Assembly (NCBI GenBank): GCA_964514655.1
Contig: CAZEQY010000014.1
Span: 10,378 to 74,377, forward strand
DNA: 64,000 nucleotides
Origin: an uncultured bacterium
GTDB taxonomy: Bacteria; Chlamydiota; Chlamydiia; Chlamydiales; FEN-1388
Reading direction: 5' to 3'
Part shown: in pieces, positions 60,056-63,253 of the stretch
Position numbering within the stretch: the stretch's first letter is position 1
How the letters are laid out: every line of letters begins with the position of its first letter
Made by a program: the position numbers and the translations under genes
Notes under the pieces: model-generated
Told to the model about the DNA's origin: nothing
Databases searched by the model: none
The model's input: the letters and a program-made list of their open reading frames with translations, nothing else

Positions 60056-62350
60056 ATGGATATTGGCAAATATAGCTCATTTTCACCTCAAGCAAATCTA
60101 GAAGCGACTTCTGTTCAAGAACAAGATCGTGCGCCCAGTAGCGACGCCAAAACAAGTTCAGTCTTTTTGGCGAGCAAAAAGGCTGAGGCGACCTTTGTTA
60201 ATGGCAAAAGCCGTACACATTCGCTCGCTCCCAAAAATCAGGTGGTCCAACAGGTTATCACGTCTATTAAAAATGTCTTTTCGACGAAGGTTAGTCTAAA
60301 GGATGTGCCGCCTAAGCTTAGATCCTTTTTTTCGGGAGAAACCATCCAGAGGCATCTATTTTTAAAAGCCTTTAAGCAGGAATTGGAAAAGAAAAAAGAC
60401 AAGCAATCAGCTTTTCAAGCTACGCTTAACGCTTGTGAAAAGGCAGATAGAGCCGGGCTTTTAGATAGAGGGCTCCTTAAGCGTATGACAGGCGAGCTTG
60501 AAAAGGCCCTTAGCAAAAAAGCGCCCATAGAGCTTGAAGAGGCAAAAAGCGTTCATGAAGAGCTTTTGGCCTTAAAGAAGGCTCCTAGCCTTTCACGGCT
60601 TGATAGCTATGTGCGACTTAATGAGCTTGCGACAAATGCAAAGACCAATCCAAAGGCCTTTAAAGAGGCTCTTGTAGCCTCTTTTAGCGAAGACAGCCAA
60701 AGCTTGCAAGATATACCAAAACGAGCAGCTGATGACCTTTTAGAAGCAAAGCGCCTTGGCGTGCTTGATATTGCCCTCTATAAGGCTATCGTCACAACCG
60801 GTGCCCAAGCGGCAAACTCTCCAAACTTTCATAATGATGTCATCGTCTGCTTGCAACAAAGGGGTGAAACAAGGCTTGCAAAAGATCTAGAGCGCTATCA
60901 CTTTCATGAGTCACTTATATGCTCGCTTGATCAGATGGATATTTATGCTAAGGAATTTGCTGAAAACCCAAAAAATATGTCTCTACAGCATGCGTGGGTA
61001 CAGGAAAACTGCCCAAGAGAGTGCCTGGTGAACTTTCCGGAAGTGCCCACGCAAGAAACTTGGGCTGAATGTTTATCAGCACTTAGAGGTGCACTCCAAG
61101 AAGCATTAGTAAAAGCTGCAAAAAGTAACGATCCTGATTTAGCAAAGATGCTTGCCTTTGGGGGGCGTGCTGTAGGAGATTTAGGAGAGAGCTTGCGATC
61201 TGCCACAAAGGCTCGAGAAGCTGCTTTTAGCCGCTTGGCATTTGCTCCTGGGCTGCAAAATGAGGTTTTACATCACTTGCTATCCGATGTCTCAAACATC
61301 ACAAGCAATGAGATTATAAATGCACGCATGGGAGTAAGTGCCGGTGCATGCAAGGTATCAGATGTAGTACTCATCAATGAGATCCCGCATAAGGTGCTAG
61401 ATGTTCAGGCCGTTGGCAATAATCAAACTCTTATAAGGCTTGAGGGTCCGGATGGAAGAGAGCACTACGTAACTAAAAATAGCGCCGATATGCTTGTTAA
61501 GGTGCGCATCAACCCATACAATAGGCAGGGCGGCATTATGGCCTTGCAGGCGGCAAAAGAGCAGATAGGCAGAATCACTGAGCTTGCAACTGGGGAAGTA
61601 AAAAAAGAGGCTGAGCAGGCGCTAGAACAGGTAAATGGCAAAATAGAGGCGATGAAACAGGCTGAGATCCAAAAGTTTTCAGCTGTAGATCGCGAGCTTG
61701 TTCAAAAAGCGATGAGCCAATTTCCTGCTCTTAATGAACATACCTTTGAGCATGATGGAAAAATGGTTACTGCTATACTTGTGCCAACTGATAAAAACGG
61801 GGTGGATGTTCTTATCAAAAAAGAAGAAATTGGCCGAGGAGCTGCTTCCGTTGTTTATTTAGCCCATTCTCTTAGCTCTAAAGCTGATGTTGCCGTAAAG
61901 TATGCAACAGAGCTTTCCGGTGAATCTAACGAAGAAGCAAATGCTCGAGCAAATCTTGAATATTTAGGAGCTGCTACCGGCATACAAAAGCCTATGCAGC
62001 ATGCGACAATACGTACGCAAGATGGCAAGAAGTCTATTACCATTGACTCTTACTATGAATATAAAGACTTTGGCCGCAACGTTACCTGGCGTCAGTTTTT
62101 TATACATGTGCTGCATCTTGAGGAGCAAGATTTTGATAATGAAGCCGTAAAAAAACAGGCCATCAACGACTACAACAAGGGCCTGCAGGCATTGTTTACA
62201 GGTGAGGCAACGCGAGAACAAAAACTTGCTCGCCTCAAAGAGTTTTCAACAAAAGAAGGCCCCATCCTTACTAAACTCATGGGCCAAGCCCCAGTCCAAA
62301 GGCTTGAAGCCCTCTATCAAAAGCTCATCGACGAAACATCCCCAGCCTAA
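60056..62350 (+). CDS. Large protein ending in a protein-kinase N-lobe (764 aa)
   Basis: GGAGAG SD before ATG 60056. Near the C-terminus are the glycine-rich loop IGRGAASVVYLA, the catalytic-lysine strand VAVKYA, and an alphaC Glu candidate in NEEANARANLEYL. No catalytic loop lies in this ORF. Confidence 0.75.
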   Translation: MDIGKYSSFSPQANLEATSVQEQDRAPSSDAKTSSVFLASKKAEATFVNGKSRTHSLAPKNQVVQQVITSIKNVFSTKVSLKDVPPKLRSFFSGETIQRHLFLKAFKQELEKKKDKQSAFQATLNACEKADRAGLLDRGLLKRMTGELEKALSKKAPIELEEAKSVHEELLALKKAPSLSRLDSYVRLNELATNAKTNPKAFKEALVASFSEDSQSLQDIPKRAADDLLEAKRLGVLDIALYKAIVTTGAQAANSPNFHNDVIVCLQQRGETRLAKDLERYHFHESLICSLDQMDIYAKEFAENPKNMSLQHAWVQENCPRECLVNFPEVPTQETWAECLSALRGALQEALVKAAKSNDPDLAKMLAFGGRAVGDLGESLRSATKAREAAFSRLAFAPGLQNEVLHHLLSDVSNITSNEIINARMGVSAGACKVSDVVLINEIPHKVLDVQAVGNNQTLIRLEGPDGREHYVTKNSADMLVKVRINPYNRQGGIMALQAAKEQIGRITELATGEVKKEAEQALEQVNGKIEAMKQAEIQKFSAVDRELVQKAMSQFPALNEHTFEHDGKMVTAILVPTDKNGVDVLIKKEEIGRGAASVVYLAHSLSSKADVAVKYATELSGESNEEANARANLEYLGAATGIQKPMQHATIRTQDGKKSITIDSYYEYKDFGRNVTWRQFFIHVLHLEEQDFDNEAVKKQAINDYNKGLQALFTGEATREQKLARLKEFSTKEGPILTKLMGQAPVQRLEALYQKLIDETSPA

Positions 62351-62407
62351 ATGAAGGCTTGCTAAATATACCCTCATTTATATAGAATATTTTATTTTGA
62401 GGTGTGT

Positions 62408-63253
62408 ATGCAGGCTGTTGGATGTGAAATTGATGATATCTTTGGAGCGCTGACTTTAGCTGAGAAAAGCGGCTACCAGCACTTAAGCATTCCTGAGAGA
62501 AGAAAGCGCTTTTCAGTCTTTTTAGAAGGCCTATTGTATATGCACAGCAAGGGCATGTGTCATGGAGATATTAAGCCCGATAATGTCTTATGGGATAAAA
62601 CAAGGTTTGATATTTCTGATTATGGCGGTTCACTCAAAATTGCCGATAAAATTCGCTTGATGAATAAAAATTTTGTCTTATCAGACGAAGATGAAAAAAA
62701 TAGTATGCAGACTCTTGTCAACGCGCTACTAATGCCCCCTAATGAGACGAATTACAAGAGACTACAAGGTGTTGTTAAGGGAGCAGCTCAGCGAATTGAC
62801 AAGCTAGTTGGGTGGGGGATTCTTAAAAAAGAGCCTGGCCAAGATGTCCCAACAATTTGCAATGAAGCAAAAATACGCTCACTAAAGGCCTATCTCAGCA
62901 CCGAATTTATGCCGGCAAATACTGACGGTTACTCCTGTGATCGCTATGTAAAGTCTATCTGCGACTCTTTTTGGAGATGTGATGCTGAAACCTATGAGCG
63001 GGCTTGCAAGATCTTAGACATGAGATCTGCCGGTATAACAATGTATGTGAGCTTTACAGCAGGCCAAACACCCCTTAAACAGCAATATGATAAGCGCTAT
63101 TATGATCATCTAGAGTTAGATCTAGCAAAAACCGTTGATGGCTGGGCAGCAACCATCATCCGCAAAATGGCAGAGCCCATAGAGTCTAAAGACCTCGTCT
63201 TCCCCGTCTCCTACGAAGACCTTAGCAGGCTACAAAAGTACCTAGCGGCATAA
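62408..63253 (+). CDS. Protein-kinase C-lobe ORF (catalytic loop and DFG-like motif)
   Basis: Catalytic loop YMHSKGMCHGDIKPDNVLWD and DISDYGGS (DFG-like). Same reading frame as 60056..62350, separated only by TAA 62348-62350 and TAA 62363-62365. GAGG precedes GTG 62402 / ATG 62408. Confidence 0.7.
   Translation: MQAVGCEIDDIFGALTLAEKSGYQHLSIPERRKRFSVFLEGLLYMHSKGMCHGDIKPDNVLWDKTRFDISDYGGSLKIADKIRLMNKNFVLSDEDEKNSMQTLVNALLMPPNETNYKRLQGVVKGAAQRIDKLVGWGILKKEPGQDVPTICNEAKIRSLKAYLSTEFMPANTDGYSCDRYVKSICDSFWRCDAETYERACKILDMRSAGITMYVSFTAGQTPLKQQYDKRYYDHLELDLAKTVDGWAATIIRKMAEPIESKDLVFPVSYEDLSRLQKYLAA

What the first reader, a model, noticed from the sequence alone, without database searches (positions are those of the whole stretch)
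60056..63253. Eukaryote-like protein kinase split between two same-frame ORFs by two TAA codons
ORF 60056..62350 ends with a kinase N-lobe: Gly-loop IGRGAASVV, VAVK lysine strand, and a hinge-like SYYEYKDFG. ORF 62408..63253 begins with the C-lobe: LLYMHSKGMCHGDIKPDNVL catalytic loop and DISDYGG in place of DFG. Both ORFs are in the same frame. The 57 nt between them contain exactly two in-frame stops (62348-62350 and 62363-62365) and no frameshift. This points to nonsense disruption of an ancestral protein of about 1065 aa. The downstream part nevertheless has its own GAGG and GTG/ATG start. Three readings remain open: a recent pseudogene, a functional two-chain kinase, or a sequencing error.
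Basis: seen in the sequence. Interest (0 to 1): 0.6.

Follow-up and report, generated by a model that had tools for sequence, protein, structure and literature searches.

The report
Naturally split two-gene protein kinase
An uncultured chlamydia-like bacterium encodes the two lobes of a eukaryote-type protein kinase on two adjacent genes; seven species keep this layout under selection, sister genes join the lobes in swapped order, and I found no paper describing either layout.

Summary
ORF1 (60056-62350) ends in a kinase N-lobe, ORF2 (62408-63253) is a kinase C-lobe, and they share a frame with two TAA codons between them.

The reading "recent nonsense disruption, or sequencing error" is not supported:
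- Six other species of the genus keep the same two genes at 30-40% identity. Each second gene has its own start. The frames differ in 4 of 6, and two pairs have a TAGTG stop/start overlap.
- All catalytic residues are conserved.
- dN/dS is about 0.1-0.16 for both genes.
- A metagenome contig from an independent study shows the same sequence through both stops.

Single-chain relatives in the normal N-then-C order exist in metagenomes, so an ancestral single protein is plausible, but the split is old.

Every genome of the genus searched (9 of 9) carries the split pair, single-ORF paralogues with the C-lobe first and the N-lobe second (a circular permutation), or both.

A complex prediction puts the two window chains together as a normal bilobal kinase (ipSAE 0.86, best control 0.04). 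That pass may partly reflect likeness to solved kinases.

Most likely this is a functional two-chain kinase. Activity, expression and target are untested.

The parts
60056..62350 (+). ORF1, 764 aa: the N-lobe-bearing chain of the split kinase. It has a disordered N-terminus, a helical region, a species-specific insert, the kinase N-lobe and a helical extension.
   Evidence: Orthologues of 401-450 aa lie directly upstream of an ORF2-like gene in G001, G003, G004, G005, G007 and G008.
60056..60235 (+). Residues 1-60 of ORF1: predicted disordered, polar, with no signal peptide. A possible secretion signal is inference only.
   Evidence: pLDDT is below 35. M1, D30 and K32 are conserved among the orthologues.
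60653..61615 (+). An insert of about 320 aa (ORF1 aa about 200-520) that the six orthologues lack. It is mostly low-confidence helices and has no Pfam family.
   Evidence: Alignment A6.
61736..62065 (+). Kinase N-lobe (ORF1 aa 561-670). It holds the Gly-rich loop IGRGAASVV (61829-61855), the beta3 Lys615 (61898-61900), the alphaC Glu626 (61931-61933) and the hinge SYYEYKDFG.
62087..62335 (+). Helical extension after the hinge (ORF1 aa 678-760). In the predicted complex it packs on the first 28 residues of ORF2.
   Evidence: The segment is colinear in the single-chain relatives.
62351..62407 (+). 57-nt spacer. It contains the second in-frame TAA (62363-62365), a promoter-like TTGCTA-18-TAGAAT (62359-62388) and the Shine-Dalgarno GAGG (62398-62401).
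   Evidence: A similar promoter-like site sits in the spacer of L032. The spacer is 54-67 nt in four orthologous pairs and a 1-nt TAGTG overlap in two.
62408..63253 (+). ORF2, 281 aa: the C-lobe chain. It holds the catalytic loop HGDIKPDN (62561-62584), DYG in place of DFG (62618-62626), an insert of about 90 aa in the activation segment, and the alphaF Asp204 (63017-63019).
63246..63260 (+). Terminator-like hairpin that overlaps the ORF2 stop.
   Evidence: a consensus scan only.

Best explanation
This is a conserved gene pair that encodes one eukaryote-type Ser/Thr-like protein kinase as two polypeptides. ORF1 supplies the ATP-binding N-lobe (Gly loop, Lys615, Glu626, hinge) plus a helical extension. 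ORF2 supplies the catalytic C-lobe (His-Gly-Asp loop, Asn59, Asp71 of DYG). The genes are adjacent on one strand, and ORF2 has its own ribosome-binding site. In two congeners the stop and the start overlap, which should keep the two chains in step.

The chains are inferred to join without a covalent link. The contacts would be hinge to beta7, alphaC to DFG, and a helix bundle made of the ORF1 tail and the ORF2 head. The active site would then exist only in the heterodimer.

The split is an old gene fission of a single-chain kinase family. Within the same genus the same two modules also occur fused in the order C-lobe then N-lobe. The split pair is therefore either the intermediate on the way to a circular permutation or its sister.

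Shown here: the layout, its conservation, purifying selection, and the predicted folds and interface. Inferred: assembly in the cell, catalytic activity, and any role as a secreted effector of this intracellular bacterium.
For: (1) Seven species of genus g1 keep ORF1-like then ORF2-like as two ORFs. Frames differ in 4 of the 6 other pairs, each ORF2 has its own SD and start, and G007 and G008 have a TAGTG overlap.
(2) These residues are invariant or nearly so across 16 split and fused modules: H52, D54, K56, N59, D71 and D204 of ORF2, and the Gly-loop Gly, beta3 Lys (Arg in two fused copies) and alphaC Glu of ORF1.
(3) dN/dS is 0.10-0.16 for both genes in the closest species pairs.
(4) Complex prediction of ORF1 aa 520-764 with ORF2 gave ipSAE 0.86 in all three runs, best of 3 controls 0.04. 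That mark was reached by 58 of 80 solved complexes and 2 of 110 mismatched pairs. The runs agree in at least 97% of contacts and the partner pLDDT is 91. The contacts are those of a normal bilobal kinase.
(5) Single-chain N-then-C relatives align colinearly across the break, which falls in a short variable loop.
(6) The N-lobe and C-lobe trees are congruent. Split and fused forms are separated with 100/99 support in both.
(7) An independent metagenome contig shows no listed difference through the stops.
(8) The permuted paralogue core folds as one compact unit, pLDDT 83 and pTM 0.78.
Against: There is no expression, protein or activity data. Two halves of a kinase resemble thousands of solved kinases, so the complex score may come partly from memory, and my own alignments were used. 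ORF1 scores below the Pfam gathering cut-off. DYG replaces DFG, and the APE motif is not recognisable, so a pseudokinase-like or non-protein substrate role is possible. dS is near saturation, so the dN/dS values are rough.
Confidence: 0.75

Rival explanations
1. Recent pseudogene: two nonsense mutations broke a single gene of about 1065 aa, and the pieces are decaying.
For: The two ORFs share a frame and two TAA codons lie between them. Single-chain relatives exist.
Against: The two-gene state occurs in 7 species at 30-40% identity, with different frames and separate starts. Catalytic residues are invariant. dN/dS is 0.10-0.16. The orthologous ORF1 is only 401-450 aa.
Confidence: 0.03
2. Sequencing or assembly error: the real gene is one open frame.
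For: The genome is a metagenome-assembled draft of 81 contigs.
Against: Run X5, from another study, has a 21.8-kb contig at depth 47.7 that covers 61600-63253 with no listed difference. Run X6 covers the first stop with no other letters. Six other species are also split.
Confidence: 0.01
3. The two chains do not form one enzyme. ORF2 acts alone, or with another partner, as a scaffold or pseudokinase. Alternatively the ORF1 N-lobe pairs in trans with other C-lobes, and the split serves regulation, for example assembly only in a certain compartment.
For: A promoter-like site in the spacer could allow ORF2 to be expressed separately. Only ORF1 has a long disordered N-terminus. Paralogous lobes exist in the same genome.
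Against: The lobe trees are congruent and the genes are strictly adjacent in all seven species. Two species have a stop/start overlap. A full set of ATP-binding and catalytic residues is kept on complementary chains. The predicted interface is confident.
Confidence: 0.15
4. Stop-codon read-through or recoding makes a single chain from both ORFs.
For: The ORFs share a frame in the window, L033 and L035.
Against: There are two TAA codons in a row in the window. Four orthologous pairs are out of frame, and two of them overlap. Every ORF2 has its own SD and start.
Confidence: 0.02

Closest known systems
Canonical eukaryote-like Ser/Thr protein kinases (Pfam PF00069), for example M. tuberculosis PknB (1mru) and Legionella LegK4 (5ckw)
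   Same: The bilobal fold is the same, as are the Gly-rich loop, beta3 Lys, alphaC Glu, HxDxKxxN catalytic loop, DFG Asp and alphaF Asp.
   Different: Here the lobes lie on two polypeptides, cut after a helical extension that follows the hinge. The paralogues have the lobes in swapped order. The activation segment carries an insert of about 90 aa, DYG replaces DFG, and no APE motif is seen.
HipBST toxin-antitoxin system (split hipA; PMC6581861, PMC9325769)
   Same: A bacterial kinase whose single-gene relative is divided between two adjacent genes.
   Different: In HipBST, HipT keeps the whole kinase core, and HipS (the N-terminal subdomain of HipA) acts as the antitoxin. Here the cut runs between the ATP-binding and catalytic lobes, so neither chain has a complete active site. 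Pfam found no HipA-type family at E up to 1, and there is no HipB-like neighbour.
Circular permutation by fission and fusion or by duplication and deletion (models reviewed in PMC3320104); circularly permuted GTPases (PMC2430557)
   Same: One family shows the canonical, split and swapped-order forms. This is the series those models predict.
   Different: The searches run here found no description of this for the protein kinase fold. The direction from split to permuted is not resolved.
Engineered split kinases used as ligand-gated switches (from my own knowledge; not found in the library)
   Same: Kinase fragments that regain activity when brought together.
   Different: Those are man-made and need fused dimerisation domains. 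This pair is natural, and a native helix bundle is predicted to hold it together.

Membership tests
Eukaryote-like protein kinase superfamily (PF00069) | Score above the Pfam gathering cut-off (31.7 bits) | tested here: met
   ORF2 scores 40.0 bits (E 3.8e-10). ORF1 alone scores 15.6 bits, below the cut-off, but matches profile positions 3-52. In the single-chain relative P0024, Pfam matches the N-lobe at profile positions 3-77.
Eukaryote-like protein kinase superfamily (PF00069) | N-lobe motifs: Gly-rich loop, beta3 Lys, alphaC Glu | tested here: met
   IGRGAASVV, VAVK615 and E626 are present. The Gly and the Glu are invariant. The Lys is present in 14 of 16 modules and is Arg in the other two.
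Eukaryote-like protein kinase superfamily (PF00069) | C-lobe motifs: HxD catalytic loop with Lys and Asn, DFG Asp, alphaF Asp | tested here: met
   H52, D54, K56, N59, D71 and D204 are invariant in 16 sequences. The window has DYG in place of DFG.
Eukaryote-like protein kinase superfamily (PF00069) | Both lobes on one chain, in the order N-lobe then C-lobe | tested here: not met
   There are two ORFs in 7 species. The paralogues have the C-lobe first and the N-lobe second.
Eukaryote-like protein kinase superfamily (PF00069) | Bilobal kinase fold | tested here: met
   This rests on predicted structures only. The C-lobe matches with Z 13.3 and the N-lobe with Z 9.2. The heterodimer interface is that of a kinase.
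Eukaryote-like protein kinase superfamily (PF00069) | ATP-dependent phosphotransfer to a protein substrate | not testable with these tools
   This needs a biochemical assay.
HipBST-type split HipA kinase | HipA-type kinase core (HipT), a HipS N-subdomain gene and a HipB regulator | tested here: not met
   Pfam lists no HipA family at E up to 1 for either ORF. The neighbours are zwf, opcA, pgl and a PD-(D/E)XK gene.
Pseudogene (nonsense-disrupted gene) | The break is absent from orthologues and constraint is relaxed | tested here: not met
   The break is present in all 6 orthologous pairs. dN/dS is 0.10-0.16.

The most novel reading that the evidence does not exclude
This chlamydial genus holds the first natural two-chain eukaryote-type protein kinase, cut between the N- and C-lobes, and also the first natural circularly permuted protein kinases (C-lobe then N-lobe). 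Canonical single-chain relatives complete a living evolutionary series: canonical, then split, then permuted. All three forms would be active enzymes, and the split form would need both chains.
Probability: 0.5. Interest if true: 0.85.

Novelty: new variant of a known kind. Interest (0 to 1): 0.75.

Why it matters
The protein kinase domain is among the most studied folds, and as far as I know it is treated as one chain with a fixed lobe order. A natural kinase made of two gene products would show that the inter-lobe hinge connection is dispensable. So would close relatives with the lobes swapped. Together with the canonical relatives they would give a rare case in which all stages of a circular permutation survive in one family. 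They would also offer natural templates for split-kinase switches. For chlamydial biology, this is a genus-restricted, expanding family of eukaryote-like kinases, and its members are candidates for host manipulation.

Tried and rejected
- Foldseek against the PDB with the permuted model gave no match at E <= 0.001. The top rows were nearly all kinases with low TM-scores. I attribute this to the swapped order, which defeats sequential alignment, and used VIA-align per lobe instead.
- A read-through of ORF1 and ORF2 with X at the stops (P0002) was meant to be folded as one chain. The supporting alignment A5 misplaced the N-lobe rows, so that fold was not run.
- hhalign of the ORF1 N-terminal region (about aa 1-180) against the leader, linker and tail of the permuted proteins found no similarity. 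BLAST of ORF1 against itself found no internal repeat.
- The word-indexed protein search found only the query itself.
- The PDB sequence search with the N-lobe profile gave only weak kinase hits (best E 0.0056). It also gave spurious polyubiquitin hits of 3 bits per repeat.
- No RNA holder was listed among the sequencing runs.
- The Chlam_OMP6 family search rang in no genome, controls included, so it says nothing.
- The AU test did not reject monophyly of the split forms (p 0.295), so the order of events stays open.
- Literature searches for natural split or permuted protein kinases found none.
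Full report
**Observation.** ORF1 runs from ATG 60056 to TAA 62348-62350 (764 aa). A second in-frame TAA lies at 62363-62365. ORF2 starts at ATG 62408, with GAGG at 62398-62401, and ends at 63253 (281 aa). The two ORFs share a frame. Pfam Pkinase matches ORF1 aa 588-637 to profile positions 3-52 (E 0.011, below the cut-off). It matches ORF2 aa 26-83 to positions 95-153 (E 3.8e-10, above the cut-off). 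The description is accurate.

**The break is old and conserved.** The window is contig C14 of a 2.89-Mb draft genome that is 94% complete. Six other species of the same genus (G001, G003, G004, G005, G007, G008) carry an ORF1-like gene directly upstream of a stand-alone ORF2-like gene.
- The ORF1-like genes encode 401-450 aa. They match ORF1 aa 1-200 and 520-763 at about 25-35% identity.
- The ORF2-like genes encode 266-292 aa from their chosen starts (open frames 273-316 aa) and are 31-40% identical to ORF2.
- The frames differ in 4 of these 6 pairs. Counting the window, 3 of 7 pairs share a frame, close to the one in three expected by chance.
- Each ORF2 has its own Shine-Dalgarno sequence and start codon.
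- The spacers are 54-67 nt in five species. In G007 and G008 the ORF1 stop and the ORF2 start overlap as TAGTG, the usual sign of translational coupling.
- The window's ORF1 is longer only because of an insert of about 320 aa (aa 200-520) that all six orthologues lack.

**Constraint.** Across 16 modules (7 split, 9 fused), H52, D54, K56, N59, D71 and D204 of the C-lobe are invariant. So are the Gly-loop glycine and the alphaC glutamate of the N-lobe. The beta3 lysine is present in 14 of 16 modules and is Arg in the other two. In the closest species pairs dN/dS is 0.10-0.16 for ORF1, for ORF2 and for the fused paralogues. dS is about 1.6, near saturation, so these ratios are approximate.

**Not a sequencing error.** The stretch occurs in activated-sludge metagenomes. 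A 21.8-kb contig from a different study (run X5, depth 47.7) covers 61600-63253 with no difference listed at the junction. Run X6 covers the first stop with no other letters.

**Paralogues with swapped lobes.** The same genome has two intact single-ORF paralogues, L011 (860 aa) and L012 (797 aa). In these the ORF2-like C-lobe comes first (aa about 80-355) and the ORF1-like N-lobe comes second (aa about 410-660). Eight further fused copies from congeners (L038-L045, one of them truncated at a contig end) have the same order. The core of L011 folds with pLDDT 83 and pTM 0.78. Its residues 24-279 align to kinase C-lobes (Csk 1k9a_A residues 285-448, Z 13.3, rmsd 3.0 A, 148 aligned), and all top 50 matches are protein kinases. 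A five-strand-plus-alphaC unit follows at residues 376-481. Foldseek, being sequential, gave only weak kinase rows.

**Canonical relatives.** An exhaustive profile search with the C-lobe alignment found three layouts:
- stand-alone proteins of 266-317 aa, in 11 clusters at 50% identity besides the window's own;
- permuted forms;
- proteins with the C-lobe at the C-terminus and the N-lobe module directly before it, namely P0016, P0023, P0024, P0025 and P0026.

The proteins of the third group are metagenome singletons. They align colinearly through the window's ORF1 end and ORF2 start, and the break falls in a short variable loop between two helices.

**Trees.** Rooted on the canonical forms, the split and permuted forms make one clade (100/99) and the permuted forms make one clade (100/100). 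Monophyly of the split forms appears in only 16% of bootstrap trees but is not rejected (AU p 0.295). Separate N-lobe and C-lobe trees are congruent.

**Distribution.** Among the 23 genomes of the family searched, only genus g1 has the subfamily (9 of 9 genomes, against 0 of 14 elsewhere). In 251 genomes of the order, only g1 matched P0024.

**Assembly.** Predicting ORF1 aa 520-764 together with ORF2, each with its alignment, gave ipSAE 0.86 in all three runs. The best of 3 controls scored 0.04. That mark was reached by 58 of 80 solved complexes and by 2 of 110 mismatched pairs. The runs agree in at least 97% of their contacts, and the partner pLDDT is 91. Residue numbers for the ORF1 side below refer to the 245-aa piece.
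- The hinge (146-165) contacts ORF2 residues 56-64.
- alphaC (107-126) contacts the DYG region of ORF2 (66-77).
- The ORF1 tail helices (171-241) contact ORF2 residues 1-28.

This is the geometry of a normal kinase. Because the two chains are halves of a very well-known fold, the pass may reflect that likeness and does not show that they bind. The ORF1 model places aa 561-670 on kinase N-lobes: STK16 2buj_B (Z 9.2, rmsd 2.5 A, 88 aligned), LegK4 (Z 8.9) and PknB (Z 8.6).

**Context.** The pair stands alone on the + strand. It diverges from a zwf-opcA-pgl operon and is followed by a terminator-like hairpin and a PD-(D/E)XK gene. The genome has three ATP/ADP translocase genes and one SctV/FlhA-type gene. 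This fits an earlier agent's label of an uncultured chlamydia. ORF1 residues 1-60 are predicted to be disordered. Any role as a secreted effector is speculation.

**Comparison with known systems.** The nearest precedent for a split bacterial kinase is HipBST (PMC6581861, PMC9325769). There the kinase core stays whole, and the split-off piece acts as the antitoxin. The canonical, split and permuted series matches the models for circular permutation (PMC3320104). Searches of the paper library found no natural protein kinase that is either split between its lobes or permuted. That library lacks most subscription journals.

**Verdict.** This is a real, conserved two-gene kinase and not a broken gene. 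It is most likely a functional heterodimeric enzyme, and it belongs to a genus-restricted family that also contains circularly permuted single-chain forms. Activity, expression, substrate and the order of evolutionary events remain to be shown.

Noticed in passing
window 60653-61615: ORF1 carries an insert of about 320 aa that all six orthologues lack. It is mostly low-confidence helices plus a small beta unit (aa 446-473), with no Pfam match and no internal repeat.
   Followed up: partly
window 62359-62388; L032 4138-4166: A sigma-70-like TTGCTA-17/18-TA(T/G)AAT site sits just after the ORF1 stop in the window and in G001. By eye, similar sites occur in L033 and L035. ORF2 may therefore also have its own promoter.
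   Followed up: partly
window 63253 onward: The contig of independent run X5 matches up to the ORF2 stop and then continues with unrelated sequence. This points to a strain-level rearrangement right behind the pair, next to a PD-(D/E)XK_3 gene (63371-63748, minus strand).
   Followed up: no
window 56623-59932 (minus strand): A zwf (G6PD), opcA and pgl operon lies divergently upstream of ORF1.
   Followed up: partly
P0021 (metagenome protein, 1276 aa): It carries a C-lobe-like module at 467-661, an N-lobe fragment at 762-823 and a second C-lobe module at 984-1263. It is either a tandem double kinase or a duplication-type intermediate of the permutation.
   Followed up: no
P0019 (metagenome protein, 1069 aa): It contains at least 14 tandem copies of a unit of 54-66 aa, each equal to the alphaE, catalytic-loop and DFG segment of a plant-receptor-like kinase. 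It is probably an assembly or exon-repeat artefact.
   Followed up: no
G000 C13, C7, C9 (loci L004-L007): The genome holds several further eukaryote-like kinase genes with open frames of 505-1044 aa, only distantly related to this family.
   Followed up: no
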